Below, in pieces: positions 35,554 to 50,233 of a DNA stretch of 64,000 nucleotides; within the stretch, counting starts at the first letter, position 1, and every line of letters begins with the position of its first letter. The stretch is from an uncultured Thermoleophilia bacterium (GTDB lineage: Bacteria > Actinomycetota > Thermoleophilia > UBA2241), in assembly GCA_903927755.1 (NCBI GenBank), contig CAIYOD010000032.1, positions 2,391 through 66,390 on the forward strand, given 5' to 3'. The translations under genes and the position numbers were made by a program. The notes beneath the pieces are model-generated. The model had not been told where the DNA came from, made no database searches, and saw nothing but the letters and a program-made list of their open reading frames with translations.

Positions 35554-35703
35554 GGGCCCTCCGTTTTTCCGGCGCTCAGTCTATCGCGCCGGATCGGGGA
35601 GAGGGTACGACGAAAGGCGAAGGCGGCGATCCGATGAATCAGACCGCCGCCTTCGCTGGAGCGCCGCCAGACCCTCGCCCGGCGGGCATGCTCGTGCCGG
35701 TGG

Positions 35704-37227
35704 TCAGCCCAGAGGGCCCACCTCGGCCTCGACCGCATCGAGGATCTCGCCCGACGCGACCAGCGCGGCCATCGCGTTGTGGTCCGGATAGAGCGGCCTG
35801 TCGATGTCGAGGTGCTCGACGTGCTTGCGGATCACGGCCTTGGCGGCGCGCACGCCCTTGCCCGGCGTGAAGTCGCGGAAGTCGAGCGCCTGCGCCGCGG
35901 CCATGAACTCGATGCCGAGCACGCCGTGGGCGTTGTCCAGGATCTGGCGGTTCTTGAGGGCCGTGTTCATGCCCATCGAGACGAAGTCCTCCTGGTCCGC
36001 CGCGGCGGGGATGCTCATCGTGCTCGCCGGCGCCGAAAGGATGCGCTGCTCGGTGATGAGCATGTCGGCGGTGTACTGGCTGAGCATCAGGCCGCTGTAG
36101 AAGCCGGGATTCGGCGTCAGGAAGTCCGGCAGGCCCTGGCTCGTCGCCGGGTTCTCAAGACGGTTCAGGCGCCGCTCACTGAGCACGCTGACCATGGTGA
36201 TGGCCTGGCCGATCATCTCCATGGGGAGGCTGACAGGCGTGCCCTGGAAGTTCGCGCCGGTGAGCGTGAGCTTGTCCTCAGGCACGAAGATCGGGTTGTC
36301 GCCGACGCCGTTCAGCTCGATCTCCACCTGGCTCTTCGCCCACTTGAGGGCGTCGTGGGCGGCGCCGATGACCTGCGGCGTCGAGCGCATCGAGTAGGCG
36401 TCCTGTACCTTGGTCTTGATCTTGCCCGTGGCGAGGTCGCTCTCGCCGATGCACGCCCGGATGGCGGCGGCGCTGCGCACGGCGCCGGAGAAGCCGCGCA
36501 GTTCGTGCAGTTTGCTGTTGTACGGCTTGAGGTTGGCGAGCAGCGCTTCGAGGCTCATCGACGCGGCGATCTCGGCCTGGCGCAGCCAGCGGTCGGCGTC
36601 GTAGCACAGAAGGGCGCTCATGCCGGTGAGGACGTTGGAGCCGTTGATGGTGGCGAGGCCGTCGCGCGCCTCCAGCCCGGGGACCGGGATGCCGGCGCGC
36701 TCGAGCGCCTCGCGGCTGGGCATCCGCTCGCCCAGATAGAAGGAGTCGCCTTCGCCCATCATGACGAGCGCCATCTGGGCCATTGGGGCGAGGTCGCCGC
36801 AGGCGCCTACCGAGCCCTTGGAGCTCATCACCGGGGTCACTCCCTTGTTGAGAAGAGCGACCAGGGTCTGCGTGATCTCCGGGCGGTTGCCTGAGTTGCC
36901 ATGGGCGTGGACGTTGACCCTTGCGGCCATGGCGGCGCGCACGACCTCGACGGGAGCAGGCTCGCCGATGCCGGCGGCGTGGTTGTAGACCAGGTAGCGC
37001 TGGAACTGCTGCACCTGGTCGTCGTCGAGCACGATCTCGCTGAACTCGCCGATGCCCGTGTTGGTCCCGTACATGATCTCGCGTGCCGTGATCTTCTCCT
37101 CGAGCATGGCGCGGCAGACCTTGATGCGCTCGAGCGCCGCCGGGTCGAGCTCGACCGCCTCGCCGTCACGGGCGATGCGCACGAGCTTCTCGACGGTCAG
37201 GGACGCGCCGTCCAGGGTGATGGTCAC
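35704..37227 (-). CDS. Aromatic amino acid ammonia-lyase family (histidine ammonia-lyase-like), Ala-Cys-Gly triad
   Basis: The 714-aa ORF is over-extended. The GTG at 37227 follows AGGAGAAACACCC (VTITLDGASL...). YGTNTGIG, GSVGACGDLAP (residues 142-144 are A-C-G), NGSN and QEDFVSMG are present. Confidence 0.85.
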   Translation of the reverse strand: MTITLDGASLTVEKLVRIARDGEAVELDPAALERIKVCRAMLEEKITAREIMYGTNTGIGEFSEIVLDDDQVQQFQRYLVYNHAAGIGEPAPVEVVRAAMAARVNVHAHGNSGNRPEITQTLVALLNKGVTPVMSSKGSVGACGDLAPMAQMALVMMGEGDSFYLGERMPSREALERAGIPVPGLEARDGLATINGSNVLTGMSALLCYDADRWLRQAEIAASMSLEALLANLKPYNSKLHELRGFSGAVRSAAAIRACIGESDLATGKIKTKVQDAYSMRSTPQVIGAAHDALKWAKSQVEIELNGVGDNPIFVPEDKLTLTGANFQGTPVSLPMEMIGQAITMVSVLSERRLNRLENPATSQGLPDFLTPNPGFYSGLMLSQYTADMLITEQRILSAPASTMSIPAAADQEDFVSMGMNTALKNRQILDNAHGVLGIEFMAAAQALDFRDFTPGKGVRAAKAVIRKHVEHLDIDRPLYPDHNAMAALVASGEILDAVEAEVGPLG

Positions 37228-37435
37228 GGGTGTTTCTCCTCTCGCGGGCACGAAGCGCCACAGCTTGCGGCCCGAAGGCCGCGGGCGGCGCCGCAACTGG
37301 CTCTCGCGCGACTGTAGGGCAGGGTCAGGCGGATGCCCAGACGCGGAGGGGGATGTCCGGGATTCCGGACGCAAATGGGCGCGAGACGGCTGTGCCGTCG
37401 CGCCTTTCCGGACGGCCTCGAGCCGGTCGGACGGC

Positions 37436-38314
37436 CTAGGCGCGCACGCGCTGAGCGATCTCGCGGCCGACGGCCTCGACCATCCGCTGCGCGCGCACGA
37501 TGCCGAACTCCTCGACGCGCCAGCTTGGCGCGGTGATGCCGACGGCGGCGTCGTCGACGGGGAGGTCGATGGCGCAGACGATGGAGGTGACGCCGGTCTC
37601 GACCGCGTCCTTGGCGACGTGGGACGTGGTGCGGTCGTCGAAGGCGGCGCCGGTCGCCGTGCCCGCCAGCGGCACGCGGCGACCCACCCAGCCGCTGTGG
37701 CGCAGCGCGTAAGAGCTCTCGACCTGGTCGACGTAGATGGCGTGATCGCCGTCGAGCACGATGAGGTTGGCCGTCTCGCTGGTCGCGTCGCGCAGCCGCA
37801 CGAGGTGCGCGCGCGCCGCGATGCGCAGCCGGTCGACCCAGCCGACACGTGAGGCCAGGCTGACCAACTCGAGGCCGAGAGAGTAGGCGCCGTCCGGGTC
37901 GGCGTGCAGCAGGTCGCTCTCCACGAGATACGGCAGGATGCGGGTGACAGCCACCCGCGACATGCCGGCGCCGGTGGCGATCTGCTGGACGGTCAGGCCG
38001 CGCGACGACGTGGCGAACGCGCGCAGAACAGCGAGTCCGTGGGCGAAGAGCGGTGCGTCGGCGCTGAGCTCGAACGCCGCCGAGCCGAGCGACCAGGCGC
38101 GCTCGTCGGCGCGGTACGTGACGAAGCGCCGGTCCTTGAGCAGGTTGAGCAGCCCGTAGGTACTCGAGCGCGGGATGTGGCACGACGAGGCGATGATGCT
38201 CGCCGGCGCCGGGCTGGTGCGGCGGCCCAGGAACTCGAGCACGTCCAGCACGCGGGCCGCCCCCCAGGTCGTGCCTTCTTCCTCTGGCCTGTGCTCCTTG
38301 GGCATCGCGATCAC
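37436..38314 (-). CDS. IclR family transcriptional regulator
   Basis: N-terminal winged HTH (VLDVLEFLGRRTSPAPASIIASSCHIPRSSTYGLLNLLKDRRFV) plus a C-terminal IclR effector domain. Divergent from the mttB-like operon. Confidence 0.85.
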   Translation of the reverse strand: MIAMPKEHRPEEEGTTWGAARVLDVLEFLGRRTSPAPASIIASSCHIPRSSTYGLLNLLKDRRFVTYRADERAWSLGSAAFELSADAPLFAHGLAVLRAFATSSRGLTVQQIATGAGMSRVAVTRILPYLVESDLLHADPDGAYSLGLELVSLASRVGWVDRLRIAARAHLVRLRDATSETANLIVLDGDHAIYVDQVESSYALRHSGWVGRRVPLAGTATGAAFDDRTTSHVAKDAVETGVTSIVCAIDLPVDDAAVGITAPSWRVEEFGIVRAQRMVEAVGREIAQRVRA

Positions 38315-38452
38315 CTCCGTGATAATCCAGCATAACGGCCATCTCGACGCACGACAACGAAAACGAGTACAGAACTCTGGACATCGGCGGCGGGGTCTTG
38401 CAGCCGGGGCGAGGCGGCGTCAGGGTGGAGCGCGCGAGACTCTCACAGACCA

Positions 38453-39946
38453 TTGGAGGAGCCGACAGTGCCCACCTCACCAGTTGACGGACGGCGTCCC
38501 GGCCGTCTCACGTATCTCAGCGACGCCGACAAGACGGCCATCTACGAGGCCGCGCTCGAGATCATCGGGTCCATCGGCATGCGCGTCCTGCACCCCGAAG
38601 CCCTCGACTTGCTGCGCGCGGCGGGCGCCGAGATCGTCGAGCCGGATCTCGTGAAGATCCCGCGCGAGCTCGTGGAGAAGGCGCGAAGCACGGCTCCGGC
38701 GGTCATCGAGGTCTTCGACCGTGCCGGCGAGCACGCCATGTCCCTCGGCCGTCACAACAGCTACTTCGGGACCGGCTCGGACCTCATGAGCACCTACGAC
38801 CTCGAGACCGGCGAGCACCGCCCGAGCGGCATCGCCGACGTCGCCCGGGCCGCCCGGCTCTGCGACGCGCTGCCCAACATCGACTTCGTCATGTCGTGCG
38901 CGCACCCGAACGACATCGAGCCGCAGCGCTCGTACCTGGAGAGCTTCAAGGCGATGGTCGCCAACACGACCAAGCCGATGGTCATGACCTCCGAGCACGG
39001 TGGCGACCTGGCCGTGATGTGCGCGATCGCCGAGGCGCTGCGCGGTGGGCCGGAAGAGCTGGCCGCCAAGCCGTACTTCACCATGTACCTCGAGCCGGTG
39101 AGCCCACTGAGCCACCCGGTCGAGAGCATCGACAAGCTGCTCTTCTGCGCCGACCACGGCATCCCGGCGATCTACTCGCCGGCGCCACTGGCGGGCGGCA
39201 CGGCGCCGATCACGGTGGCCGGCCATACCTGCCAGGGCGTGGCCGAATCCCTCTTCGGGCTCGTCATCCACCAGCTGCGCAAGCCGGGCGCGCCGTTCCT
39301 GTTCGGGATCGGCCCGGCGGTGCTCGACATGGCCACCTCGCAGAGCTCGTACAACGCGCCCGAATACCTGATGACGTTCCTGTGCCAGATCGAGATGGCG
39401 CGCTGGCTCGATCTGCCCAACTGGGGCTACGGCGGCACATCTGACTCACAGGTCGTGGATGCGCAGGCCGGCATGGAGATCGCCGAGCTGGCATTCCTGT
39501 GCCTCGCCGCAGGGTCCAACCTCAACCACGACGTGGGCTATCTCGACTTCGGCCTCACGGCCTCACTCGAGCTCATCGTCATCGTGGACGAGTACATCGC
39601 CATGAACCGCAAGCTCTTCGCCGGCGTCGAGGTGACGCCGCAGACGCTGGCCGTCGACGTGGTCCGCGACGTCGGCCCCGGCGGCGACTTCCTCGCCCAC
39701 CGCCACACCGCCAAGAACGTGCGCAAGGCGCAGTGGCGCCCGACGATCATCAACCGTCAGGGCCACGTGCGCTGGGCCGAAGAAGGCGGGCTCGACCTCA
39801 AGGAGAAAGCCCGCCTCAAGGCTCTCGGGCTGCTCAAGACGCATGAGCCCGCGCCGCTGTCGGCAGAGCTGGCGGCGCGCATCGACGCGCTGGTCGCTGC
39901 GTTCACGCCCGGCGACGCCACAGCGTCCGCCGGGGCGGAGGGCTGA
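38453..39946 (+). CDS. MttB-superfamily methyltransferase (non-pyrrolysine), paralog 1
   Basis: LSDADKTAIYEAALEIIGSIGMRVLHPEALDLLRAAGAEI, GTSDSQVVDAQAG and GPGGDFLAHRHT are present. The ORF is uninterrupted with no in-frame TAG. The exact start is uncertain. Confidence 0.85.
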   Translation: MEEPTVPTSPVDGRRPGRLTYLSDADKTAIYEAALEIIGSIGMRVLHPEALDLLRAAGAEIVEPDLVKIPRELVEKARSTAPAVIEVFDRAGEHAMSLGRHNSYFGTGSDLMSTYDLETGEHRPSGIADVARAARLCDALPNIDFVMSCAHPNDIEPQRSYLESFKAMVANTTKPMVMTSEHGGDLAVMCAIAEALRGGPEELAAKPYFTMYLEPVSPLSHPVESIDKLLFCADHGIPAIYSPAPLAGGTAPITVAGHTCQGVAESLFGLVIHQLRKPGAPFLFGIGPAVLDMATSQSSYNAPEYLMTFLCQIEMARWLDLPNWGYGGTSDSQVVDAQAGMEIAELAFLCLAAGSNLNHDVGYLDFGLTASLELIVIVDEYIAMNRKLFAGVEVTPQTLAVDVVRDVGPGGDFLAHRHTAKNVRKAQWRPTIINRQGHVRWAEEGGLDLKEKARLKALGLLKTHEPAPLSAELAARIDALVAAFTPGDATASAGAEG

Positions 39947-39949
39947 GCC

Positions 39950-41374
39950 GTGGGCGCCCGCCTCTCGTACCTCTCGGACGACGACAAGACGGCCATCTAC
40001 GAGGCCGCGCTCGAGATCATGAGCACCATCGGCCAGCGGGTGCATCACCCGGAGGCGCTGGAGCTTCTGCGTGCGGCCGGCGCCGAGATCGTCGAGCCCG
40101 ATCTCGTCAAGATCCCACGCGAGCTCGTGGAGAAGGCGCGGCGTACGGCGCCGGCGGTCATCGAGGTCTACGACCGCGCCGGCGAGCACGCCATGTCGCT
40201 CGGCCGCACCAACTCGTACTTCGGCAACGGCTCGGCGGTCACCGGCGTCTACGACGTGGAGACCGGCGAGCACCGGCCCACCGTCCTCGCCGACGGCGAG
40301 ATGGCGGCGCGCCTCTGCGACGCCCTCCCGCAGGTCGACTTCGTCATGGCGTACGCGCATCCGGGCGACTTCGACCCGCACGTCGCGCTGCTCCAGAGCT
40401 TCCGTGCGATGGTCAAGAACACGTCCAAGCCGCTGTGCGCGGTCGCGGAGAACAAGCGCGATCTCGCGGCGATGACGGAGATCGCAGCGGCCGTGCGCGG
40501 CGGCGGCGCCGAGCTCGCCGCCAAGCCGTATTTCGTCCTCTACCTCGAGCCGACAAGCGCCCTGAGTCACCCAGTCGACAGCCTCGACAAGCTGCTCGTC
40601 TGCGCCGACCATGGCATTCCCGCGATCTACTCGCCGGCGCCGCTCGCCGGCGGGACGGCGCCCATCACCATCGCCGGGCAGATCGCCCAGGGCACCGCCG
40701 AGTCGCTGCTCGGTCTTGTCATCCACCAGCTGCGCAACCCCGGCGCGCCGTTCCTCTACGGCGTCGGCCCCGCCGTCCTCGACATGGCGACCTCGCAGAG
40801 CTCGTACAACGCGCCCGAGTACCTCATGGGCTACGTCTGCGCGGTCGAGCTGGCGCGCTGGCTGGACCTGCCCAACTGGGGCTACGCCGGCACCACCGAC
40901 GCACAGGTGATCGACGCACAGGCGGGCATGGAGGCGGCCGAGTTGACCTTCCTCAGCATGGTCATCGGGTCCAACCTGAACCACGATCTCGGCTACCTCG
41001 ACTTCGGCATGACCGGGTCGCTGGAGCTGATCGTGCTGGCGGACGAGTTCCTCGCGCTGAACCGCAAGCTGGTCGCCGGCGTCGAGGTGACGCCGGAGAC
41101 GCTGGCCGTCGACGTGGTCCGCGACGTCGGTCCCGGCGGCGACTTCCTCGCCCACCGCCACACGGCCAAGAACGTGCGCAAGGCGCAGTGGCGGCCGACG
41201 ATCATCAACCGCCAGGGTCACGTCCGCTGGGCCGAAGAGGGCGGGCTCGACCTCAAGGAGAAAGCCCGCCTCAAGGCTCTCAGGCTGCTCGAGACGCATG
41301 AGCCCGCGCCGCTGTCGGCAGAGCTGGCGGCGCGCATCGACGCGCTGGTCGACGGGTTCACACCGGAGGGCTGA
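39950..41374 (+). CDS. MttB-superfamily methyltransferase (non-pyrrolysine), paralog 2
   Basis: GTG start 3 nt after the paralog 1 stop. Close paralog of the previous gene, with near-identical N- and C-terminal segments. Confidence 0.85.
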   Translation: MGARLSYLSDDDKTAIYEAALEIMSTIGQRVHHPEALELLRAAGAEIVEPDLVKIPRELVEKARRTAPAVIEVYDRAGEHAMSLGRTNSYFGNGSAVTGVYDVETGEHRPTVLADGEMAARLCDALPQVDFVMAYAHPGDFDPHVALLQSFRAMVKNTSKPLCAVAENKRDLAAMTEIAAAVRGGGAELAAKPYFVLYLEPTSALSHPVDSLDKLLVCADHGIPAIYSPAPLAGGTAPITIAGQIAQGTAESLLGLVIHQLRNPGAPFLYGVGPAVLDMATSQSSYNAPEYLMGYVCAVELARWLDLPNWGYAGTTDAQVIDAQAGMEAAELTFLSMVIGSNLNHDLGYLDFGMTGSLELIVLADEFLALNRKLVAGVEVTPETLAVDVVRDVGPGGDFLAHRHTAKNVRKAQWRPTIINRQGHVRWAEEGGLDLKEKARLKALRLLETHEPAPLSAELAARIDALVDGFTPEG

Positions 41375-41376
41375 CG

Positions 41377-42777: not shown

Positions 42778-42989
42778 CGGCCGCGGTGCTACCGGCAGGG
42801 CATCGGGCAGCCGGCTGCCGGCGGACCGGTGCGAAGATCCGGACGGCGCGGCAACTGGATCACGAAACGCTCCGGTATCCGAGACTGCGACGTCGCTGCC
42901 TTGTCCGCGGCGTGGCGCCCCACAGATAGTGCCTGTTGCGGACTCCGGGTCGCCGACCCGGTCCGAACCACAGCTTCAGGAGTGACAGC

Positions 42990-44096: not shown

Positions 44097-44106
44097 GGGA
44101 GCACGC

Positions 44107-45528
44107 ATGACGGTGCTGCTGACCGGACGGGACCTGACGCCGGCGGACGTCGTCGCGGTCGCGCGCGCGGGCGCGCCCGCCGCGCTCGCCGAGGCGGCGC
44201 TCGACGCCATGCTCGAGGCGAACGCGCTGGCCGAACTGACCTTCGAGCGCGGCCTGCCGACCTACGGGCTCACCACGGGCCTCGGCGCCCAGAAACGCAC
44301 CTCGCTGCGCCGAGACGACGGAGGGTTCAGCTGGCGGCAGATCGCGGAGAGCCGCGTGGGGCAAGGGCCGGCGGCGCCGCGCGAAGCCGTGCGCGCCGCG
44401 ATGCTCGTGCTCGCCAACCAGTTCGCCGGGGCGAGCACGTGTGTGCGCCCGGTGCTCGCCGACGAGCTCGTCCGGGCGCTCAACGACGACCGGATCCCGG
44501 AGGTCCGGCTGCTCGGGTCGCTCGGTGCCTCCGACCTCGCGCCGATGGCCGACATCGCGCACGGCGTCTTCGCCGGGATGGAGCTGGCCCCCGGCGAAGG
44601 GCTGGCGCTGATCAACACGAGCGCGTTCGGCACCGGCCTGGCGACGCTCGCGCTGGTCGACGCTGCGCGCCTTCTCGACGCCGCCGACGTGGCCGGCGCC
44701 CTGGCGCTCGAGGGCTTCGCCGCCAACCTGTCGGCGCTGGACCCCGTGATCGAGCACGCGCGCCCCGACCCGGTGCTCGCGCGCACCCTCGAGCGCTTCC
44801 GGCTCCTGCTCGAAGGCAGCTACCTCTGGCAGGAGGGGGCTGCGCGGAACCTGCAGGACCCGCTCACCTTCCGCAGCACAGCGCCCATCCAGGCGGCCGC
44901 CCGCGCCGGGTTGGAGCACGCCCTGGCGCTCCTCGGCCGCGAGCTGAACTCGGCTCAGGGCAACCCGCTCGTCTCCGCCTCCGCCGGCCGGATCCTGTCC
45001 ACCGGCGTCTACGAGGTGCTCGGCCTCGCCGCCGTGCTCGACTACGCGCGCATCCTCCTGGCGTCGGTCCTGAGCGCGGCCAGCGAGCGCGCCGTCAAGC
45101 TGCTCGACACGCCGTGGTCTGGTCTTCCCACCGGCCTCCTGCCGGGAGACGGTCCCGACCTCGGGCTGAGCATCCACGCGATCGCCGCCCAGGCGCTGGC
45201 CGCCGAGGCGAGCCTGCTCGCCCAGCCGGTGTCGTTCACGGTCTTGAGCACCGCCGGCGCCGAAGGCATCGAGGACCGGGCGACGCTGCTGCCGCTCTCG
45301 GCCCGACGCCTGGCCGAGGTGGTCGAACTGGGCGAGGGCGTGATCGCGGTGGAGCTCCTCGTCGCCGCGCAGGCCGTGGATACGCGCGGCTCCTCGCCGC
45401 TCGGGACTGGCACAGGTGCGGCGCATGCGAGGATCCGCGAAGTGGTCCCCGCGACGGGCCCCGGCGCCGCGCCGCCGGTGGACGTCGGCCCGGTGCGCGC
45501 GCTCATCCGTGCCGGCCTCATCACGTGA
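44107..45528 (+). CDS. Aromatic amino acid lyase family protein lacking the MIO glycine (HAL-like, probably MIO-less)
   Basis: YGLTTGLG is conserved, but the triad region reads GSLGAS-DLAPM (A141-S142-D143) instead of GSVGASGDLAP. 473 aa. Confidence 0.75.
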   Translation: MTVLLTGRDLTPADVVAVARAGAPAALAEAALDAMLEANALAELTFERGLPTYGLTTGLGAQKRTSLRRDDGGFSWRQIAESRVGQGPAAPREAVRAAMLVLANQFAGASTCVRPVLADELVRALNDDRIPEVRLLGSLGASDLAPMADIAHGVFAGMELAPGEGLALINTSAFGTGLATLALVDAARLLDAADVAGALALEGFAANLSALDPVIEHARPDPVLARTLERFRLLLEGSYLWQEGAARNLQDPLTFRSTAPIQAAARAGLEHALALLGRELNSAQGNPLVSASAGRILSTGVYEVLGLAAVLDYARILLASVLSAASERAVKLLDTPWSGLPTGLLPGDGPDLGLSIHAIAAQALAAEASLLAQPVSFTVLSTAGAEGIEDRATLLPLSARRLAEVVELGEGVIAVELLVAAQAVDTRGSSPLGTGTGAAHARIREVVPATGPGAAPPVDVGPVRALIRAGLIT

Positions 45529-45641
45529 TCCGGCCGTGACCCGTCGCCGGCGCGCGAGATCCCGACCATGCCGACGGCGCCGGCGCAAGGACAGAATGAT
45601 GGTTCGCGCGCCCCTGGGCGCGCCGCGATGAAGGAGCGACC

Positions 45642-46280
45642 ATGGGAACGTTGACCGACCTCACTGTCGATGGTTTTGCCGGAGCCGTCGCGTCCGACGC
45701 GCCGGCCCCCGGCGGCGGCAGCGCCGCCGCCCTGGCCGGCGCGGTCGCGGCAGGCCTCGTCGCGATGGTCTGCCGCCTCAGCATCGGCAGGGACGACATC
45801 GCCGCGACGAGCGAGGAGCTGTCCCGGACGCTCGAGCGCTGCGAGGTGCTGCGCCTGCGCTTCGTCGAGCTGGTCGACGAGGACACTTCCGCCTTCGACG
45901 CGGTCATGGACGCGATTCGCATGCCGAAGGCGGACGATGCCCAGCGCGCGGCGCGGTCGGCTGCGCTGGCGCAGGCCACCCTGAACGCGGCCGCGGTACC
46001 GCTGGAGACCCTGACGGCGGCGCGAGAGACGCTCGACCTGGCCGCGCCCCTCGCCGGCCGCTCCAACTCCGGCGCCGCGAGCGACCTGGGCGTCGGCGTC
46101 CACCTCGCGCACACGGCCGCGGAGGGCGCCCTGCTCAACGTGGCCATCAACCTGGCGTCGCTCCCGGCGAGCGCGGACGCCGACCGCCTGAGCCGCGAGA
46201 GCCGCGCGGCGATCGCCGCGGCGCGCGCCTCCGCGACGGCGACGTCGGAGGTCATCGCGGCCGGTCTCGGCCTGGCCTGA
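45642..46280 (+). CDS. Cyclodeaminase/cyclohydrolase family protein (FTCD C-terminal / FchA-like)
   Basis: FAGAVASDAPAPGGGSAAALAGAVAAGLVAMV, DTSAFDAVMDA and NLGVGVHLA-type helices are diagnostic of the FTCD_C family. Confidence 0.8.
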   Translation: MGTLTDLTVDGFAGAVASDAPAPGGGSAAALAGAVAAGLVAMVCRLSIGRDDIAATSEELSRTLERCEVLRLRFVELVDEDTSAFDAVMDAIRMPKADDAQRAARSAALAQATLNAAAVPLETLTAARETLDLAAPLAGRSNSGAASDLGVGVHLAHTAAEGALLNVAINLASLPASADADRLSRESRAAIAAARASATATSEVIAAGLGLA

Positions 46281-46398
46281 GCCGCGTCGCGCGGCTGCGT
46301 TCCCATCCATGTCCCGAGACTTACGGCGCATCGGCTTGCACGCTCATACCCCCCCTGCGTATCGTGAGGCGGCTACTCCACGTCGGCGGAGGACCCTG

Positions 46399-48261
46399 AT
46401 GGACACCCACTTGATGCTCGGCAACGAAGCTGTCGCCCGCGGGGCCTGGGAGGCCGGCGTGCAGGTCGCCGCGGCGTATCCCGGGACGCCCAGCACGGAG
46501 ATCGTCACCAACCTGGCCCGCTACGACGGCGTCTACGCCGAGTGGTCCACCAACGAGAAGGTAGCCTACGAGGTGGCCTTCGGCGCCGCGATGGGCGGCG
46601 TCCGCGCCCTGACGGCGATGAAGAGCGCAGGCGGCAGCGTCGCCGCCGACCCGCTGATCAGCTCCGTCTACACGGGCGTCAACGGGGGGCTCGTCGTGTG
46701 CCTCGCCGGCGACCCCGGCATGGCCAGCGGCATGACCGAGCAGGACGACCGCTACTTCGGCCGCATCAGCAGCATGCCGATGCTGGAGCCGGCCGACAGC
46801 CAGGAGTGCTACGAATACGCCAAGCGCGCGTTCGCGATGAGCGAGGAGTTCGACGTGCCGGTCATGGTGCGCCTGAGCATCCAGACGGCGCACCAGAAGA
46901 GCATCGTCCGCTTCGACGGCGAGATCGCCGGCGAAGGGGACGGCCCGGCCGGCCTGACCCGGCCGGCGCCCGAGCGCCGGCCGCCGGACCGCAAGACCGA
47001 GAAGTACTGCCTGCTGCCCAAGTTCTCGCGGCCGCTGCACCGCAGCCTGCTCGAGCGCGTGGAGCGTCTGCGGGTGTTCGCCGAGGCCAGCGCGGCCTCG
47101 GGCGACCTGGCCCAGGTCGTGCCCGCCGCCGGCCCGGTGCCGCTGCAGGGCGGCGGGACGGCGAGAATCGGCGTGGTCTCCGCCGGGGCGGCGTACCTCA
47201 GCGCCAGAGAGGCGCTGCCCGGCGCCGCCTTCCTCAAGCTCGGCATGATCCACCCGCTGCCGCTCGACGCCATCCGAGCCTTCGCACAGACGGTCGACCG
47301 GCTGTTCGTCGTCGAGGAGCTCGAGCCGTATCTGGAGGAGCAGATCCTCGCGGCTGGGATCCTCTGCGAGGGCAAGCAGTGGTTCCCACAGTGGGGCGAG
47401 CTCACGGCCGTGCGGGTGGGCCGGGGTTTCTCCGCCGCCGGCCTCGACCTCCCGCGCTGGGCGGAGGAGAAGGCCGCGGAAGACGGCTCCGTCATCCCGC
47501 GGCCCCCCGTGCTCTGCACCGGCTGCCCGCACCGCGGCATGGCCACGGCGATGAAGAAGCTCAACCTCGACGTGCACGGCGACATCGGCTGCTACGACCT
47601 CACGACCCTGCCACCGGTCAGCCACATGCACTCCGCCGTCGAGATGGGCGCCAGCATCCCGATGGAGCAGGGCTTCATGCGCGCCGGCGGCAGCGAGACC
47701 GGATCGCTCGCCGTCATCGGCGACTCGACGTTCCTGCACTCGGGCCTCACCGGATTGCTGAACGCCGTGCACCAGCGCACCGACCTGACGCTGCTCATCC
47801 AGGACAACAGCATCACGGCGATGACCGGTGGCCAGACCAATCCCGGCAACGAGCGTACGCTGGCCGGGGTCGAGACCAAGCCTGTCGACATCGCCGGCAT
47901 CTGCAAGGCGCTCGGGGTGGAGCAGATCGAGATCGTCGACCCGTACGACTACGAGGCGTGTCTCGCGGCGCTCAAGGCCGGGCTGGCCTACGAGGGCCCG
48001 GCCGTCATCATCACCAACCGCCCCTGCATGCTCTTCCCGCGCAAGATCGGCGGCGAGGAGGCCTTCACGGTGGACGAGGACGTGTGCAACGCCTGCCAGC
48101 AGTGCATGAAGCTCGGCTGCCCGTCGCTCTCGCACACCGAGGCCGAGCACAAGGGCCGCCACAAGGTGAAGATCGACGAGGAGACCTGCACCGGCTGCTC
48201 GCTGTGCGAGCAGCTCTGCAAGCCCGGAGCCATCTCGAAGGCGAAGGCAGGTGTGGCATGA
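46399..48261 (+). CDS. iorA: Indolepyruvate:ferredoxin oxidoreductase subunit alpha
   Basis: In the frame of ORF 46309..48261, starting at the ATG at 46399 (MDTHLMLGNEAVARGAWEAG...YPGTPSTEI). Has a TPP region and a C-terminal CNACQQCMKLGCP / CTGCSLCEQLCKP dicluster. Confidence 0.88.
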   Translation: MDTHLMLGNEAVARGAWEAGVQVAAAYPGTPSTEIVTNLARYDGVYAEWSTNEKVAYEVAFGAAMGGVRALTAMKSAGGSVAADPLISSVYTGVNGGLVVCLAGDPGMASGMTEQDDRYFGRISSMPMLEPADSQECYEYAKRAFAMSEEFDVPVMVRLSIQTAHQKSIVRFDGEIAGEGDGPAGLTRPAPERRPPDRKTEKYCLLPKFSRPLHRSLLERVERLRVFAEASAASGDLAQVVPAAGPVPLQGGGTARIGVVSAGAAYLSAREALPGAAFLKLGMIHPLPLDAIRAFAQTVDRLFVVEELEPYLEEQILAAGILCEGKQWFPQWGELTAVRVGRGFSAAGLDLPRWAEEKAAEDGSVIPRPPVLCTGCPHRGMATAMKKLNLDVHGDIGCYDLTTLPPVSHMHSAVEMGASIPMEQGFMRAGGSETGSLAVIGDSTFLHSGLTGLLNAVHQRTDLTLLIQDNSITAMTGGQTNPGNERTLAGVETKPVDIAGICKALGVEQIEIVDPYDYEACLAALKAGLAYEGPAVIITNRPCMLFPRKIGGEEAFTVDEDVCNACQQCMKLGCPSLSHTEAEHKGRHKVKIDEETCTGCSLCEQLCKPGAISKAKAGVA

Positions 48262-48863
48262 GCACCGACCACTATCACGGCGGCGTGGTCGACGACATCA
48301 TGGTCGTCGGCGTCGGCGGCCAGGGCGTGATCGTGGCCGCCGCGGTCATCGCCGACACGGCGATGCTGCACGGCGGCCTCGACGTCAAGCTCTCGGAGAC
48401 CCGCGGCATGAGCCAGCGCGGCGGCAGCGTGAACTCGCACATCCGCATCGGCGAGACCGTCGTCGCGCCGAGCATCAGCCCGGGCGAGGTCGACTACCTG
48501 CTGGCGTTCGAGTCGGCCGAGGGGCTGCGCACGGCGCCGTCCCTCGTCCCCGGCGGCGTCGCGATCATCAACACGCAGCAGATCGTGCCGCCGCTCGCCT
48601 CGCAGGGCGACATGAGCTACCCGTTCGACGCGGCCGAGCGCATGGCGCTGGGCGACCGGCGCGTGACCGTCGTAGACGGCAACGGCATCGCCCTGGAGGT
48701 CGGCGAGCTCAAGGTGGCCGGCATCGTCCTGGTCGGCGCGCTCTCCACGCACCTGCCGTTCGACGTCGAGACCTGGCAGGCGGCGATCGTGCGCAACGTG
48801 CCGCCCAAGTGGAAGGACCTCAACTTCGCCGCTTTCGCGGCCGGACGTGAGGTCGGGGCATGA
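48258..48863 (+). CDS. iorB: Indolepyruvate:ferredoxin oxidoreductase subunit beta
   Basis: ATGA overlap with iorA. MVVGVGGQGVIVAAAVIADTAM, SETRGMSQRGGSV. 201 aa. Confidence 0.85.
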   Translation: MSTDHYHGGVVDDIMVVGVGGQGVIVAAAVIADTAMLHGGLDVKLSETRGMSQRGGSVNSHIRIGETVVAPSISPGEVDYLLAFESAEGLRTAPSLVPGGVAIINTQQIVPPLASQGDMSYPFDAAERMALGDRRVTVVDGNGIALEVGELKVAGIVLVGALSTHLPFDVETWQAAIVRNVPPKWKDLNFAAFAAGREVGA

Positions 48864-50233
48864 GCACCACTTGTCCGGGCGGCGCGGCCGCCGGCTCTCA
48901 CGCCGTGGCCGACGACGAGCGCGAGTACTTCGACCCGGTCAACGAGACGCTGGAGCCCGAGGACCTGCAGGAGCTCCAGCTCGAGCGCCTGCAGACCGTC
49001 GTCGCCCACTCGTACGCGAACAGCGACGCCTACCGCGCGCTCTGCGACGGGGCCGGCGTCGCGCCCGCGGACATCAAGTCCCTGGACGACCTCCGCCGGC
49101 TCCCGTTCGTCGACAAGGTCACGCTCCGCGACTACTACCCGGACAAGCTGCGCACCTGCGGCCTCGACAACATCATCGAGGTCCACAGCACGTCCGGCAC
49201 GACCGGCAAGCCCACGCCGATCTGGGTGTCTCGCAAGGACATGGACCTCTGGCTGGAGCGCAACGCGCGGACCATGTGGATGATCGGCCTCCGCCCGGGC
49301 GACCTCCTGCAGAACATGTTCGGCTACGGCCTGCCGACCAGCATCGGGCTGCAATACGGCGCCCAGCACGCCGGCATCGGCGTGGTGCCCGCCGGCATCG
49401 GCCGCCAGGAGCTGCTCATCGACTTGATGGTCGACCTCGGCGTCACCGCTATCTGCACCACGCCGTCCTACGGGCTCTACCTCGCCGAGAAGGCACTCGA
49501 GCGCGGCATCGACCTCAGCAGGGACACCAGGCTGCGCATCGGCCTGTTCGGCGCCGAGCCGTGGCCGGAGACCGGCCGCGAGCGCCTTGCCGCCGCGATG
49601 GGCGTCGACGTCTTCAACGAGTACGGAATGGGTGAGTTCCTCGGACCGGGCATGGCCGCGGAGTGTCCGGTCAAGCAGGGCATGCACGTCTGGTCGGACC
49701 ACATCTACGTGGAGTGCATCGACCCTGTGACGCTCGAGCCGGTCGCCGATGGCGCCCCCGGCGAGCTCGTCTGGACCTCGCTCACCAGCGACTCCACGGC
49801 GATGATCCGCTACCGCAGCCACGACATCAGCTCGCTCACCTACGAGCCCTGCGCCTGCGGCCGCAGCCATCCGCGCATCGGCCGCATCACCGGGCGCAGC
49901 GACGACGCCGTGTCCGTCGGCGGCCTCGTCGTGTTCCCCAGCCAGATCGAAGAGGTGCTGCTGAAGTACGACGAGTTCGGCAGCAACTTCTGCATGGTCA
50001 TCGACAACGTGAACAACCTCGACCGGCTGACGCTGCAGGTCGAGGTCCGCGGGCTCGACGAGATGAGCGACGACGCCCAGGCCAGGCTGTCGAAGGGCAT
50101 CGTGACGGGCGTCAAGACCAGCGTCGGCGTGACGCCGAAGATCGAGCTGCATGCACCGTACGCGCTGCCGCGCGACACGAGCGGCCAGGGCAAGACCGCC
50201 TGCCATCGCGTCGACGACCGTAGGAGCTGCTGA
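48860..50233 (+). CDS. Phenylacetate-CoA ligase family (PaaK-like), copy 2
   Basis: ATGA overlap with iorB. LQLERLQTVVAHSY, LDDLRRLPFVDK and HSTSGTTGKPT are present. Confidence 0.85.
   Translation: MSTTCPGGAAAGSHAVADDEREYFDPVNETLEPEDLQELQLERLQTVVAHSYANSDAYRALCDGAGVAPADIKSLDDLRRLPFVDKVTLRDYYPDKLRTCGLDNIIEVHSTSGTTGKPTPIWVSRKDMDLWLERNARTMWMIGLRPGDLLQNMFGYGLPTSIGLQYGAQHAGIGVVPAGIGRQELLIDLMVDLGVTAICTTPSYGLYLAEKALERGIDLSRDTRLRIGLFGAEPWPETGRERLAAAMGVDVFNEYGMGEFLGPGMAAECPVKQGMHVWSDHIYVECIDPVTLEPVADGAPGELVWTSLTSDSTAMIRYRSHDISSLTYEPCACGRSHPRIGRITGRSDDAVSVGGLVVFPSQIEEVLLKYDEFGSNFCMVIDNVNNLDRLTLQVEVRGLDEMSDDAQARLSKGIVTGVKTSVGVTPKIELHAPYALPRDTSGQGKTACHRVDDRRSC

What the first reader, a model, noticed from the sequence alone, without database searches (positions are those of the whole stretch)
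35704..50233. IclR-linked locus combining three MttB-family methyltransferases, two HAL-family lyases, an opine dehydrogenase, a folate cyclodeaminase and iorAB-paaK: candidate pathway for an N-methylated aromatic amino acid or betaine
The gene order is HAL-like(ACG) <- IclR <-> MttB1-MttB2-MttB3-opine DH-HAL-like(no MIO Gly)-FTCD_C-IorA-IorB-PaaK, mostly translationally coupled. Non-Pyl MttB proteins are known as demethylases of quaternary amines such as glycine betaine, proline betaine, carnitine and gamma-butyrobetaine. An FTCD_C/FchA-type enzyme fits oxidation of the C1 unit on tetrahydrofolate. An MIO-less HAL homolog is the known solution for eliminating trimethylamine from a histidine betaine (ergothionase). 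Opine dehydrogenases act on secondary-amine amino acids. IorAB and PaaK process arylpyruvates and arylacetates.
My hypothesis is stepwise demethylation and/or amine elimination of a methylated histidine or tryptophan derivative such as hercynine, ergothioneine, hypaphorine or N-methyl amino acids. This would feed urocanate/arylpyruvate and C1-THF pools. To my knowledge this combination has not been described as a pathway.
No corrinoid protein, corrinoid:THF methyltransferase or reductive activase is encoded in the window, although characterised MttB systems need them. hutU and hutI are also absent.
Basis: partly seen in the sequence, partly recalled or inferred. Interest (0 to 1): 0.8.

Follow-up and report, generated by a model that had tools for sequence, protein, structure and literature searches.

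The report
Candidate methylated-histidine breakdown gene cluster
An uncultured soil actinobacterium (class Thermoleophilia) carries a conserved gene cluster that most likely breaks down histidine carrying methyl or other groups on its amino nitrogen, joining enzyme families not reported together before, but no substrate has been tested.

Summary
The cluster reads HAL1 (Ala-Cys-Gly) <- IclR <-> MttB1-MttB2-MttB3 | opine-DH-like - HAL2 | FTCD_C | IorA-IorB-PaaK-like - ferredoxin-like.

The same string occurs in at least three further species-level Thermoleophilia genomes. Those genomes add a NikA-like binding protein, a TIM-barrel gene, a Mo-hydroxylase, a fourth MttB and a canonical urocanase.

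HAL2 belongs to a large, uncharacterised clade of lyases that lack the MIO cofactor. Ergothionase sits in a sister subclade. HAL2 lacks the ergothionase lysine, and its orthologue in one relative sits next to a true hutU.

MIO-less relatives recur next to three methyltransferase families: MttB, Bhmt/MtgE-like and core-MetE-like. The opine-DH family recurs next to MttB, HAL1 and IorAB in other lineages.

Best reading (about 0.45): a catabolic island for N-alpha-substituted histidines such as hercynine. No corrinoid protein is encoded in the window, but that has a published precedent. Substrates and step order are inferred only.

Ergothioneine is unlikely. Tryptophan or tyrosine betaines remain possible. 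I found no paper that links MttB with hercynine or ergothioneine.

The parts
35704..37227 (-). HAL1: a histidine-ammonia-lyase-like enzyme with a MIO-forming triad, Ala-Cys-Gly in place of Ala-Ser-Gly. It lies downstream of iclR on the same strand.
   Evidence: Lyase_aromatic at 527 bits. NCBIfam PRK09367 scores 523.1 against a cutoff of 524, and hutH scores 499 against 539. The sequence shows YGTNTGIG, NH(83), GACGD, QDAYSMR and DQEDF. Orthologues in L009 and L010 also carry ACG. An 81% identical orthologue with ASG sits next to the opine-DH in L091.
37436..38314 (-). IclR-family regulator with two tandem HTH_IclR domains followed by IclR_C. It is divergent from the mttB genes.
   Evidence: Pfam gives HTH_IclR in two stretches plus IclR_C. 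The same architecture is found in L003 and L004.
38315..38452 (.). Divergent promoter/operator region. It holds a block of about 70 nt that is almost invariant in five genomes, including the near-palindrome GTACAGAACTCTGGAC at 38367-38382, a candidate IclR operator.
   Evidence: Alignment of W, L004, L007, L009 and L010. The palindrome is unique in the window at 0 mismatches. One sigma70-like match lies at 38299-38326. The operator role is an inference.
38453..39946 (+). MttB1: MttB-superfamily methyltransferase without pyrrolysine.
   Evidence: PF06253 at 284 bits. There is no in-frame stop, and Thr sits at the Pyl position. The MtgB pocket positions Y97/R312/H348/F356 read S/W/H/G. Orthologues occur in L004, L007, L009 and L010.
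39950..41374 (+). MttB2: a tandem paralogue of MttB1, starting 3 bp after the mttB1 stop.
   Evidence: 79% identical to MttB1, with the same pocket residues. It forms a separate orthologous clade in four relatives.
41377..42777 (+). MttB3: a member of the MtgB-related clade, starting 2 bp after the mttB2 stop.
   Evidence: PF06253 at 336 bits. The best PDB match is glycine betaine methyltransferase 9yce/2qne at 2.4e-76. The pocket reads S/R/Q/F, so two of the four MtgB residues are changed. It is 32% identical to MttB2.
42778..42989 (.). 212-bp gap containing a GC-rich hairpin at 42800-42832. Relatives carry SBP5 and AP_endonuc_2 genes at this position.
   Evidence: No terminator was called by the scan.
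42990..44096 (+). Opine-dehydrogenase-family NAD(P) oxidoreductase (OpDH).
   Evidence: PF02317 at 40.7 bits. It matches CENDH 1bg6 at 1e-24. It is adjacent to HAL2 in 11 loci. Homologues sit next to MttB (L088, L090), HAL1 (L091) and IorAB (L087).
44107..45528 (+). HAL2: a MIO-less lyase of the HAL family and a candidate N-alkylamine (trimethylamine) lyase. It starts 10 bp after the OpDH stop.
   Evidence: The loop is GAS-D with no Gly. QDPLTFR shows HAL Tyr280 replaced by Leu, as in ergothionase. Tyr53, Gln, Arg, Asn and Glu414 are kept. The ergothionase Lys384 position is Ile/Ala, and the HAL His83 position is Ser followed by Arg. It falls in the MIO-less clade of the NJ tree. The AF2 model has pLDDT 87, and its top Foldseek hit is ergothionase 6s7j at 6e-27 with TM 0.92.
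45642..46280 (+). FTCD_C-domain protein: either a formimino-THF cyclodeaminase or a methenyl-THF cyclohydrolase.
   Evidence: PF04961 at 186 bits. FchA scores 152 bits against a cutoff of 275, so the subtype is unresolved. A GAAGGAG ribosome-binding site precedes the start. FTCD_C recurs near HAL2 orthologues in L011 and, fused to LarA_N, in L020.
46399..48261 (+). IorA-like 2-oxoacid:ferredoxin oxidoreductase alpha subunit. The ORF is open from 46309, but 46399 is the likely start.
   Evidence: IOR_alpha scores 574 bits against a cutoff of 651, with the match starting at ORF residue 34. The ribosome-binding site and ATG are at 46399.
48258..48863 (+). IorB-like subunit, overlapping the iorA stop by 4 bp.
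   Evidence: POR at 119 bits. IOR beta scores 206 bits against a cutoff of 237.
48860..50233 (+). PaaK-like aryl/acyl-CoA ligase, overlapping the iorB stop by 4 bp.
   Evidence: PaaK models score 365-370 bits against cutoffs of 646-700. AMP-binding and AMP-binding_C_2 domains are present.
50289..50927 (+). Ferredoxin-like 4Fe-4S protein. The same family follows paaK in L004.
   Evidence: Fer4_16 at 5e-9. Family 121 is shared with L004.

Best explanation
The locus is an IclR-controlled catabolic island of an uncultured Thermoleophilia bacterium. Its likely substrates are histidines substituted on the alpha-nitrogen, with hercynine (histidine betaine) and its partly methylated forms the leading candidates.

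Inferred working model:
1. The three non-Pyl MttB enzymes transfer a methyl group from a quaternary N to a corrinoid protein encoded elsewhere, and from there to tetrahydrofolate.
2. HAL2 has no MIO cofactor and eliminates the already good (methylated) amine leaving group to give urocanate.
3. HAL1 deaminates free histidine.
4. The opine-DH-family enzyme oxidises the remaining N-alkyl amino acid at C-alpha, giving an arylpyruvate (imidazolepyruvate) plus a methylated amine.
5. IorAB and the PaaK-like ligase process that 2-oxoacid through its CoA ester.
6. FTCD_C handles formimino- or methenyl-THF.

Shown: the family memberships, the loss of MIO, the conservation of the gene string, and the recurrent linkages. 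Inferred: every substrate, the order of steps, and co-regulation.
For: 1. The string HAL1<IclR<>MttBx3>...OpDH>HAL2>...IorA>IorB>PaaK>Fer4 recurs in L004, L007, L009 and L010. L007, L009 and L010 are different GTDB species. The three MttBs form three orthologous clades.

2. HAL2 shares several derived characters with ergothionase. These are the one-residue-shorter MIO-less loop, QDPL[ST]FR and xIED. It falls inside a monophyletic MIO-less clade, and its top structural match is 6s7j. All characterised MIO-less members act on histidine betaines (bioRxiv 10.1101/2025.08.13.670108; 10.64898/2026.04.22.720169).

3. Histidine link:
- The HAL2 orthologue in L003 (67% identical) lies directly after a hutU equivalog scoring 951 bits against a cutoff of 375. 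That equivalog follows MttB and a corrinoid protein.
- Downstream in L003 are Fdx-OFOR, SucCD-like, arginase-family and aminotransferase genes.
- Urocanases 86-87% identical to the L003 one occur in the L004, L009 and L015 strings.
- L015 carries a HutI-like gene.
- L091 carries HAL1, OpDH, Amidohydro_1 and FTCD_N.
- FTCD_C recurs in W, L011 and L020.

4. N-methyl link. MIO-less relatives sit next to MttB in 23 of 86 loci, and in 12 of 18 close relatives. In about 40 Gaiellales loci they sit next to Meth_synt_2, S-methyl_trans (Bhmt/MtgE-like), DAO and Fae genes.

5. OpDH link. OpDH homologues pair with other cluster families in divergent lineages:
- L090 (GC 48%) has MttB-OpDH-MttB-OpDH in alternation.
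- L088 has MttB next to OpDH.
- A spirochaete locus, L087, has IorAB with OpDH.

6. A missing corrinoid protein has a precedent. Many MttB paralogues can share one core MtgC (PMC12478193).
Against: - No substrate was tested for any enzyme.
- The window has no hutU, hutI, FTCD_N, corrinoid protein, MT2 or RamA.
- HAL2 has Ser-Arg where HAL, HBTL and ergothionase have the imidazole-binding His83.
- HAL1 is only 39% identical to the HutH of a canonical hutU-hutH-hutI cluster and scores just below the hutH cutoffs.
- A lyase that releases TMA and demethylases that need the intact betaine are partly redundant. No known non-Pyl MttB uses TMA or tertiary amines.
- No OpDH-family enzyme is known to act on N-methyl or N,N-dimethyl amino acids.
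- The modules reshuffle among relatives, and gaps of 212, 113 and 118 bp allow separate transcripts.
- MttB genes may be numerous in these genomes, so some adjacency could be chance. I could not measure the background frequency.
- The closely related loci are not independent observations.
Confidence: 0.45

Rival explanations
1. The region is a mosaic rather than a pathway. It would be an amino-acid and amine catabolic island made of independent modules that are neighbours by drift. The modules would be a betaine-demethylating MttB set with a histidase, an opine/N-alkyl-amino-acid module (OpDH-HAL2), a C1-folate enzyme, and a general arylpyruvate module (IorAB-PaaK).
For: The modules occur separately:
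- HAL2 orthologues occur without MttB or OpDH in L012, L023 and L026, and in L006/L022 for more distant relatives.
- OpDH occurs with IorAB but without HAL2 or MttB in L087, and without any of these families in L089.
- Relatives insert SBP5, AP_endonuc_2, a Mo-hydroxylase and MttB4 where W has gaps or FTCD_C.

Intergenic gaps of 212, 113 and 118 bp are present. No shared operator upstream of OpDH reached significance. The window also holds a second PaaK-like gene and further OFOR genes.
Against: The whole string keeps its order and strand in at least four species. Pairwise links recur in unrelated arrangements and lineages. These links are HAL2 with a methyltransferase, OpDH with MttB, OpDH with HAL1 or HAL2, and OpDH with IorAB. 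That pattern is hard to explain by drift alone.
Confidence: 0.22
2. The substrates are aromatic betaines other than histidine, such as hypaphorine (tryptophan betaine) or tyrosine/phenylalanine betaine. HAL2 would give indoleacrylate or coumarate, and OpDH with IorAB-PaaK would process indolepyruvate or phenylpyruvate.
For: The IorAB and PaaK families are named for indolepyruvate and phenylacetate. HAL2 lacks the imidazole-binding His83 and has Ser-Arg instead. That position is a known substrate-selectivity switch in TAL and PAL; this point rests on my recall of Watts 2006 and Louie 2006.
Against: - IorA, IorB and PaaK all score below their equivalog cutoffs.
- The Ser-Arg form of HAL2 sits directly next to a canonical hutU in L003 and near one in L009 and L015.
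- The Glu414 equivalent is kept.
- HAL1, HutI-like, FTCD_N and FTCD_C in relatives all point to histidine.
- No MIO-less lyase for a non-histidine betaine is described in the papers I read.
Confidence: 0.12
3. The core module degrades N-alpha-carboxyalkyl histidines. Candidates are opines such as histopine, or staphylopine/pseudopaline-type metallophores. A NikA/CntA-like binding protein would import the compound and OpDH would split it. HAL1 or HAL2 would then act on the histidine part. The MttBs would be accessory.
For: The block SBP5-AP_endonuc_2-OpDH-HAL2 is conserved in L004, L007, L009 and L010, and in a variant order in L017. The SBP5 is most similar to the nickel binding protein NikA (177 bits) and also matches the staphylopine binding protein CntA (90 bits). 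OpDH is related to CENDH. HAL1 is adjacent to OpDH in L091.
Against: W itself has lost SBP5 and AP_endonuc_2 but keeps the rest of the string. The SBP5 scores are far below the cutoffs of 600 and 800. This reading does not explain why OpDH alternates with MttB in L090, or why MIO-less lyases sit next to three methyltransferase families. Elimination of a secondary amine without MIO has no precedent.
Confidence: 0.1
4. HAL2 is an ergothionase and the locus degrades ergothioneine.
For: Ergothionase 6s7j is the top structural match. HAL2 shares the MIO-less loop length and the QDPL[ST]FR motif with it.
Against: - The Lys384 position, reported as essential for thiolate binding in ergothionase, is Ile/Ala in HAL2 and throughout its clade.
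- Ergothionase sits in a separate, Lys-bearing subclade.
- The hydratase next to the L003 orthologue scores 697 against a cutoff of 930 for thiourocanate hydratase, but 951 against 375 for hutU.
- No desulfhydrase or hydantoinase genes are present in the window.
Confidence: 0.04

Closest known systems
MIO-less trimethylammonia-lyases: ergothionase (T. denticola, PDB 6s7j), histidine betaine TMA-lyase Swoo_3913, and the N-pi-methyl-hercynine lyase SO_3299
   Same: HAL2 has the same fold (TM 0.92 to 6s7j). It has no Ala-Ser-Gly and a loop shortened by one residue. HAL Tyr280 is replaced by Leu. The catalytic Tyr, the carboxylate-binding Gln/Arg/Asn and the Glu414 equivalent are all kept. It falls in the same MIO-less clade in the tree.
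   Different: HAL2 is only 24% identical to 6s7j. It lacks Lys384 and has Ser-Arg at the His83 site. It is cytoplasmic, with no leader peptide. It is not linked to a flavocytochrome reductase or to the aerobic ergothioneine pathway genes. Instead it sits with MttB, OpDH and ferredoxin-dependent 2-oxoacid oxidoreductases. Its substrate is unknown.
Corrinoid-dependent quaternary-amine methyltransferase systems of the MttB superfamily: MtgB/MtgC/MtgA of Desulfitobacterium, MtpB/MtcB/MtyB of Eubacterium limosum, and MtgBCDE of Ruegeria pomeroyi
   Same: The three proteins have full-length PF06253 domains without pyrrolysine. MttB3 is closest to MtgB (2.4e-76). As in R. pomeroyi and E. limosum, there are several MttB paralogues with no dedicated corrinoid gene beside them (PMC12478193).
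   Different: The glycine-betaine pocket residues Y97/R312/H348/F356 are not conserved. No MtgC, MtgA/D or RamA lies in the 64 kb window. The three genes are in tandem and linked to HAL-family lyases and an opine-DH, which none of the papers I read reports.
Histidine utilisation (Hut) pathway, formiminotransferase variant: HutH, HutU, HutI, FTCD_N and FTCD_C
   Same: The window has a HutH-like HAL1 and an FTCD_C protein. Relatives add a canonical hutU, a HutI-like amidohydrolase and FTCD_N in the same neighbourhoods.
   Different: In the window, hutU, hutI and FTCD_N are absent. HAL1 carries Ala-Cys-Gly and is only 39% identical to a HutH from a canonical cluster. The second lyase has no MIO.
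Opine dehydrogenases: CENDH of Arthrobacter (1bg6), octopine dehydrogenase, and CntM
   Same: The Octopine_DH helical domain and a Rossmann domain are present. The alignment to 1bg6 covers the full length (residues 8-362) at 1e-24.
   Different: Identity is low, and the Pfam score of 40.7 bits is only just above the cutoff of 30. The genomic partners are MttB, HAL-family lyases and IorAB rather than opine permease/oxidase or metallophore genes. No activity is known.
IorAB-PaaK arylpyruvate/arylacetate module of anaerobes and archaea
   Same: The alpha and beta subunits and the ligase have the same domain make-up, and their genes overlap by 4 bp at each junction.
   Different: All three score below the NCBIfam equivalog cutoffs, so specificity is open. 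Here they follow a lyase, a dehydrogenase and a folate enzyme.

Membership tests
MIO-less trimethylammonia-lyases (ergothionase / histidine betaine lyase group) | Aromatic-amino-acid-lyase fold (PF00221) | tested here: met
   PF00221 at 301 bits. The AF2 model has pLDDT 87, and Foldseek gives TM 0.92 to 6s7j.
MIO-less trimethylammonia-lyases (ergothionase / histidine betaine lyase group) | No Ala-Ser-Gly triad, so no MIO cofactor | tested here: met
   The loop reads GSLGAS-DLAPM. The Gly is absent in all full-length sequences among the 120 closest relatives and in about 70 representative clusters.
MIO-less trimethylammonia-lyases (ergothionase / histidine betaine lyase group) | Catalytic Tyr (beta-proton acceptor) and carboxylate-binding Gln/Arg/Asn | tested here: met
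   YGLTTGLG, QDPLTFR and GNPL are invariant in alignment A1.
MIO-less trimethylammonia-lyases (ergothionase / histidine betaine lyase group) | Imidazole-binding His (HAL His83) and Glu (HAL Glu414) | tested here: inconclusive
   The Glu is kept (GIEDR). The His83 column is Ser, followed by Arg. Close orthologues have Ser-His, and more distant ones have His-Arg or His-Leu.
Ergothionase (subfamily) | Lys384 of the T. denticola enzyme, which binds the thiolate | tested here: not met
   The aligned position is Ile/Ala. Lys-bearing sequences form a separate subclade together with 6s7j.
MIO-less trimethylammonia-lyases (ergothionase / histidine betaine lyase group) | Release of trimethylamine and an enoate from an N-alpha-trimethyl amino acid | not testable with these tools
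   This needs an enzyme assay.
MttB superfamily, non-Pyl quaternary-amine:corrinoid methyltransferases | Full-length PF06253 TIM-barrel domain without an in-frame UAG | tested here: met
   Scores are 284, 278 and 336 bits, covering profile positions 30-493 of 500. The ORFs are uninterrupted. The Pyl column holds Thr, Thr and Ala.
MtgB (glycine betaine methyltransferase) | Substrate-binding residues Y97, R312, H348 and F356 (PMC13080624) | tested here: not met
   MttB1 and MttB2 read S/W/H/G. MttB3 reads S/R/Q/F.
MttB superfamily, non-Pyl quaternary-amine:corrinoid methyltransferases | A cognate corrinoid protein, a methylcorrinoid:THF methyltransferase and a reductive activase | tested here: not met
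   None is present in the 64 kb window. A corrinoid protein lies beside MttB only in L003, and a URO-D-like gene only in L015, L024 and L028. The rest of the genome could not be searched.
Opine dehydrogenase family (PF02317) | Octopine_DH helical domain plus an N-terminal NAD(P) Rossmann domain | tested here: met
   PF02317 scores 40.7 bits against a cutoff of 30. The alignment to 1bg6 covers the full length at 1e-24.
Opine dehydrogenase family (PF02317) | NAD(P)-dependent cleavage or formation of an N-(carboxyalkyl) amino acid | not testable with these tools
   This needs an enzyme assay.
Hut pathway (histidine utilisation) | HutH equivalog | tested here: inconclusive
   HAL1 scores 499 against the TIGR01225 cutoff of 539, and 523.1 against the PRK09367 cutoff of 524. 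All HAL active-site residues are present, but the MIO triad is Ala-Cys-Gly.
Hut pathway (histidine utilisation) | hutU, hutI and a formiminoglutamate-processing enzyme in the same locus | tested here: not met
   They are absent from the window. They are present in relatives' loci.
Indolepyruvate:ferredoxin oxidoreductase with phenylacetate-CoA ligase | Equivalog-level match to IorA, IorB and PaaK | tested here: not met
   IorA scores 574 against a cutoff of 651. IorB scores 206 against 237. PaaK scores 365-370 against 646-700. The domain architectures match.
Methenyl-THF cyclohydrolase FchA / formimino-THF cyclodeaminase | FTCD_C domain; FchA equivalog score | tested here: inconclusive
   PF04961 scores 186 bits, so the domain is present. 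FchA scores 152 against a cutoff of 275, which is not met. The two activities cannot be told apart by sequence here.

The most novel reading that the evidence does not exclude
The three pyrrolysine-free MttB paralogues, working with a corrinoid protein encoded elsewhere, strip all three N-alpha-methyl groups from hercynine. The product is free histidine for the co-conserved histidase HAL1. This would be the first corrinoid-dependent demethylation of tertiary and secondary amines without pyrrolysine.

A related variant is also not excluded. In it, the opine-DH-family enzyme takes the N,N-dimethyl amino acid left by MttB and converts it to the 2-oxoacid plus dimethylamine. That would be a new demethylase-dehydrogenase route for amino-acid betaines, running in parallel to the MIO-less lyase.
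Probability: 0.1. Interest if true: 0.85.

Novelty: new variant of a known kind. Interest (0 to 1): 0.6.

Why it matters
- Most members of the MttB superfamily have no known substrate. The known substrates (glycine betaine, proline betaine, carnitine, gamma-butyrobetaine, choline derivatives) matter for methane and trimethylamine budgets.
- MIO-less HAL homologues have only been characterised since 2019, and only for three histidine betaines.
- This locus and its relatives give a concrete, testable lead. A relative of the MIO-less lyase is found in 547 species-level genomes, and the closest 80 are mostly Thermoleophilia, Gaiellales and other Actinomycetota from metagenomes.
- The lead is that hercynine-type compounds, which fungi and actinobacteria produce widely, are substrates for orphan MttBs, for a new clade of MIO-less lyases and for an orphan opine-DH clade.
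- If confirmed, it would add a soil sink for histidine betaines. It could also add a source or sink of methylated amines, and a new partnership between lyase and corrinoid chemistry.

Tried and rejected
- **Rest of the genome.** I tried to search the source contig for corrinoid or hut genes by looking up window-edge proteins. Both look-ups failed, because no gene with exactly that product was on record.
- **Promoters and terminators.** The scan of 35500-51200 gave one weak promoter match and no terminators. That is uninformative in 70% GC DNA.
- **Riboswitches.** An Rfam scan for cobalamin, THF or SAM riboswitches found only two tRNAs.
- **Shared IclR operator.** Relatives have a GTCC-N-GGAC palindrome upstream of SBP5. 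W has only a degenerate copy upstream of OpDH, and the pattern search gave no more than chance. I therefore make no claim about co-regulation.
- **First automatic gene call.** It mis-merged ORFs, missing IclR and IorB, and I replaced it with a log-odds start picker.
- **Clustering artefact.** Single-linkage clustering wrongly merged a 367-aa Meth_synt_2 protein into the HAL family. I corrected this by motif and Pfam checks.
- **Rejected readings.** Ergothionase is rejected because Lys384 is absent and the neighbouring hydratase is hutU rather than thiourocanate hydratase. MtgB identity is rejected for all three MttBs because the pocket residues differ. Pyl-type MttB is rejected because there is no UAG.

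Full report
**1. What is in the sequence**

The window has about 70% GC, and real genes stand out by GC3 of 0.85-0.95. Between 35704 and 50927 I find these genes.

On the minus strand:
- iclR at 38314-37436.
- After a 208-bp gap, HAL1 at 37227-35704.

On the plus strand, divergent from iclR:

| Gene | Coordinates |
|---|---|
| mttB1 | 38453-39946 |
| mttB2 | 39950-41374 |
| mttB3 | 41377-42777 |
| opine-DH-like gene (OpDH) | 42990-44096 |
| HAL2 | 44107-45528 |
| FTCD_C | 45642-46280 |
| iorA | likely 46399-48261 |
| iorB | 48258-48863 |
| paaK-like | 48860-50233 |
| ferredoxin-like gene | 50289-50927 |

Family assignments come from Pfam and NCBIfam. The intergenic distances are 3, 2, 212, 10, 113 and 118 bp, then overlaps of 4 and 4 bp, then 55 bp. 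The string could therefore be one transcript or as many as four. Simple promoter and terminator scans do not decide this.

The window holds no corrinoid protein, urocanase, HutI-like, URO-D-like or FTCD_N gene. It also holds no riboswitch.

**2. The two HAL homologues**

HAL1 has every HAL active-site residue, but its MIO triad is Ala-Cys-Gly. It scores just below the hutH cutoffs: 523.1 against 524, and 499 against 539.

HAL2 is 30% identical to HAL1. Its features are:
- The loop reads GSLGAS-DLAPM. The Gly that must cyclise to form MIO is missing, and the loop is one residue shorter. Ergothionase 6s7j has the same loop length (GEGD).
- It has QDPLTFR, so HAL Tyr280 is Leu, as in ergothionase.
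- It has an xIED motif in place of NQED.
- It keeps the catalytic Tyr, the carboxylate-binding Gln/Arg/Asn and the Glu414 equivalent.

An exhaustive search of cluster representatives showed that about 70 clusters at 33-67% identity share all these characters. In a neighbour-joining tree they form one clade set against the MIO-bearing HALs. Ergothionase lies in a subclade that carries its thiolate-binding Lys384. HAL2 lies in a Lys-less subclade.

An AlphaFold model (pLDDT 87) matches ergothionase best, at 6e-27 and TM 0.92. HALs follow narrowly at 1e-24.

Two preprints show that MIO-less enzymes without that Lys cleave trimethylamine from hercynine or from N-pi-methyl-hercynine. They also state that MIO-less lyases need a trimethylammonium group (10.1101/2025.08.13.670108; 10.64898/2026.04.22.720169).

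HAL2 therefore passes the family-level tests and fails the ergothionase-specific one. The caveat is that the imidazole-binding His83 column holds Ser followed by Arg. Close orthologues have Ser-His.

**3. The three MttBs**

All three are full-length and free of pyrrolysine. The Pyl column holds Thr, Thr and Ala.
- MttB1 and MttB2 are 79% identical tandem duplicates with the same pocket residues.
- MttB3 is 32% identical to them and falls in an MtgB-related clade.
- The four residues that bind glycine betaine in MtgB are Y97, R312, H348 and F356 (PMC13080624). Here they read S/W/H/G in MttB1 and MttB2, and S/R/Q/F in MttB3. None of the three is an MtgB.

Each has its own orthologue in L004, L007, L009 and L010. 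Those genomes carry a fourth MttB clade after HAL2.

The missing corrinoid partner is not a strong objection. In Ruegeria pomeroyi and Eubacterium limosum, many MttB paralogues share a single core corrinoid subunit. In R. pomeroyi the Bhmt-like protein is a module (MtgE) of that enzyme (PMC12478193). Among 87 loci, only L003 has corrinoid proteins beside its MttBs.

**4. Conservation in relatives**

The exact HAL2 protein is on record in NCBI, JGI and ENA. Sources that name its close relatives place them in Thermoleophilia or Actinomycetes MAGs. A pattern scan of one genome per GTDB species found 547 genomes with a MIO-less relative, and I fetched 80 loci. I called genes and clustered the proteins myself.

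*Close relatives.* In the closest group (HAL2 at 72-79% identity) the string is:

HAL1 < IclR <> MttB x3 > SBP5 > AP_endonuc_2 > OpDH > HAL2 > Mo-hydroxylase > (MttB4 <) IorA > IorB > PaaK > Fer4 > urocanase

This holds in L004, L007, L009 and L010, within the limits of each locus. Compared with these, W lacks SBP5, the TIM-barrel gene, the Mo-hydroxylase, MttB4 and urocanase, and it has FTCD_C after HAL2.
- FTCD_C also occurs after PaaK in L011, and fused to a LarA_N domain 5 kb from HAL2 in L020.
- OpDH and HAL2 are adjacent in 11 loci.
- The iclR-mttB1 intergenic region contains a block of about 70 nt that is almost invariant in five genomes. It includes the near-palindrome GTACAGAACTCTGGAC, a candidate operator.

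*L003.* Here HAL2 is 67% identical, and the order is:

IclR - MttB - corrinoid protein - hutU - HAL2 - ferredoxin - OFOR(abc) - SucCD-like - arginase-family - aminotransferase

That hutU scores 951 bits on the hutU equivalog model, against a cutoff of 375. It scores below the cutoffs of the thiourocanate and S-methyl-thiourocanate hydratase models. Urocanases in L004, L009 and L015 are 86-87% identical to it. L015 adds hutU - Fdx - OFOR - HutH(ASG) - HutI-like a few kb from HAL2.

*Gaiellales loci.* In about 40 loci with relatives around 52% identical, the MIO-less gene is flanked by a core-MetE-like Meth_synt_2 gene, a Bhmt/MtgE-like S-methyl_trans gene and a sarcosine-oxidase-like DAO. Fae, CDO_I-like, Amidohydro_2 and SBP5-ABC transporter genes also occur, and MttB is sometimes present.

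This lyase clade therefore recurs beside three unrelated methyltransferase families and beside formaldehyde-handling genes.

**5. The opine-DH family**

The window's protein aligns over its full length with CENDH (1bg6) at 1e-24. Homologues at 50-60% identity occur in other lineages:
- A Spirochaetaceae genome has IorA - IorB - SBP5 - ABC - PrpD - AcnX - OpDH.
- A 48% GC, sigma54-bearing contig (L090) has SBP5 - MttB - OpDH - MttB - OpDH - AFOR.
- L088 has MttB genes directly upstream of OpDH.
- L091 has MttB - AP_endonuc_2 - MttB - Mo-hydroxylase - HAL1(ASG, 81% identical to W HAL1) - OpDH - OCD - ... - Amidohydro_1 - FTCD_N.
- A planctomycete homologue at 43% identity has none of these neighbours.

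OpDH is therefore linked in different arrangements to MttB, to HAL1 or HAL2, and to ferredoxin-dependent 2-oxoacid or aldehyde oxidoreductases.

**6. Interpretation**

The facts that need explaining are these:
- A lyase clade whose characterised members need a quaternary histidine betaine.
- Its repeated linkage to methyl-transfer and formaldehyde enzymes.
- Its linkage to canonical hutU, hutI and FTCD genes, and to a histidase-like HAL1.
- The linkage of the OpDH clade to MttB and to 2-oxoacid oxidoreductases.

The simplest account is catabolism of N-alpha-substituted histidines, above all hercynine. I propose the following roles. All of them are inferred.
- The MttBs harvest a methyl group through a shared corrinoid protein into the folate pool.
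- HAL2 eliminates the methylated amine to give urocanate.
- HAL1 handles free histidine.
- OpDH oxidises the N-alkyl amino acid that remains, giving imidazolepyruvate plus a methylated amine.
- IorAB and the PaaK-like ligase take the 2-oxoacid on.
- FTCD_C serves the formimino- or methenyl-THF step.

I put this at about 0.45.

Weak points:
- A lyase that releases TMA and demethylases that need the intact betaine are partly redundant.
- No OpDH is known to use N-methyl amino acids.
- His83 is replaced in HAL2.
- The Hut genes are missing from the window itself.
- The close relatives are not independent observations.
- The background density of MttB genes in these genomes is unknown.

Rivals:
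- A mosaic of independent modules (0.22).
- Non-histidine aromatic betaines (0.12).
- Carboxyalkyl-histidine opines or metallophores (0.10).
- Ergothioneine (0.04).

**7. Novelty**

Full-text searches found no paper that mentions MttB together with ergothioneine. A wider search pairing MttB with hercynine, histidine betaine, hypaphorine or ergothionase listed none that involves MttB. I found no description of an OpDH-MttB or MIO-less-lyase-MttB cluster.

Every component belongs to a known family, so I class this as a new variant of known kinds of system, not a new category. Its value is as a specific, cheap-to-test lead for orphan MttBs, an orphan MIO-less lyase clade and an orphan opine-DH clade in abundant, uncultured soil Actinomycetota.

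Noticed in passing
window 37436-38314 (-): The IclR regulator has two tandem HTH_IclR domains (residues 19-67 and about 94-145) ahead of a single IclR_C domain. The same doubled architecture appears in the IclR genes of L003 and L004.
   Followed up: partly
window 35704-37227 (-): HAL1 carries Ala-Cys-Gly where MIO enzymes have Ala-Ser-Gly. The Cys is conserved in L009 and L010, while an 81% identical orthologue in L091 has Ala-Ser-Gly. HAL1 is only 39% identical to the HutH of a canonical hutU-hutH-hutI cluster in L015.
   Followed up: partly
L029-L086 (about 40 Gaiellales/Actinomycetota loci), e.g. L049:8322-11000: These loci share a conserved block. It reads MFS > ATP-grasp < core-MetE-like (Meth_synt_2) > MIO-less HAL (loop GQAD/GQGD) > Bhmt/MtgE-like or GFO oxidoreductase > nucleoside hydrolase > SBP5 ABC transporter. 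DAO, Fae, CDO_I-like and Amidohydro_2 genes are often nearby. This looks like a second, different pathway for N-methylated compounds built around the same lyase clade.
   Followed up: partly
L090:6740-15674: A 48% GC contig with a sigma54 activator carries SBP5 - MttB - OpDH - MttB - OpDH - AFOR. The genes alternate and are closely packed; the first OpDH overlaps the following MttB by 4 bp. The arrangement suggests that MttB and the opine-DH-family enzyme act as a functional pair.
   Followed up: partly
window 55000-57273 (+): A single ORF fuses a POR-gamma domain to a GltD/dihydropyrimidine-DH-like Fer4_20 plus Pyr_redox_2 module and a C-terminal 2x[4Fe-4S] domain. It lies after OFOR alpha and beta genes and a class IV aminotransferase. 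It may be a pyridine-nucleotide-linked 2-oxoacid oxidoreductase.
   Followed up: no
window 9473-19043 (+): This is a run of genes at lower GC (64-67%). Two carry type IV pilin-like N_methyl motifs, and several large ORFs (up to about 890 aa) have no Pfam match. It may be a pilus or pseudopilus locus.
   Followed up: no
window 27344-33390 (-): A second PaaK-like ligase gene sits at the end of a LivKHMGF-type ABC transporter operon. This arrangement is separate from the iorAB-paaK set.
   Followed up: no
L020:16112-18085: A 657-aa protein fuses a LarA_N (lactate racemase-like) domain to an FTCD_C domain. It lies 5 kb from a HAL2 orthologue, two MttB genes and a urocanase.
   Followed up: no
L008, L015, L019, L024, L028 (e.g. 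L028:2597-4648): A DMSO-reductase-family molybdopterin oxidoreductase sits inside the SBP5 ABC transporter operon next to HAL2. In L024 and L028 it comes with Fer4_11 and Pyr_redox_2 genes. In L015, L024 and L028 a URO-D-like (MT2-type) gene is also present.
   Followed up: no
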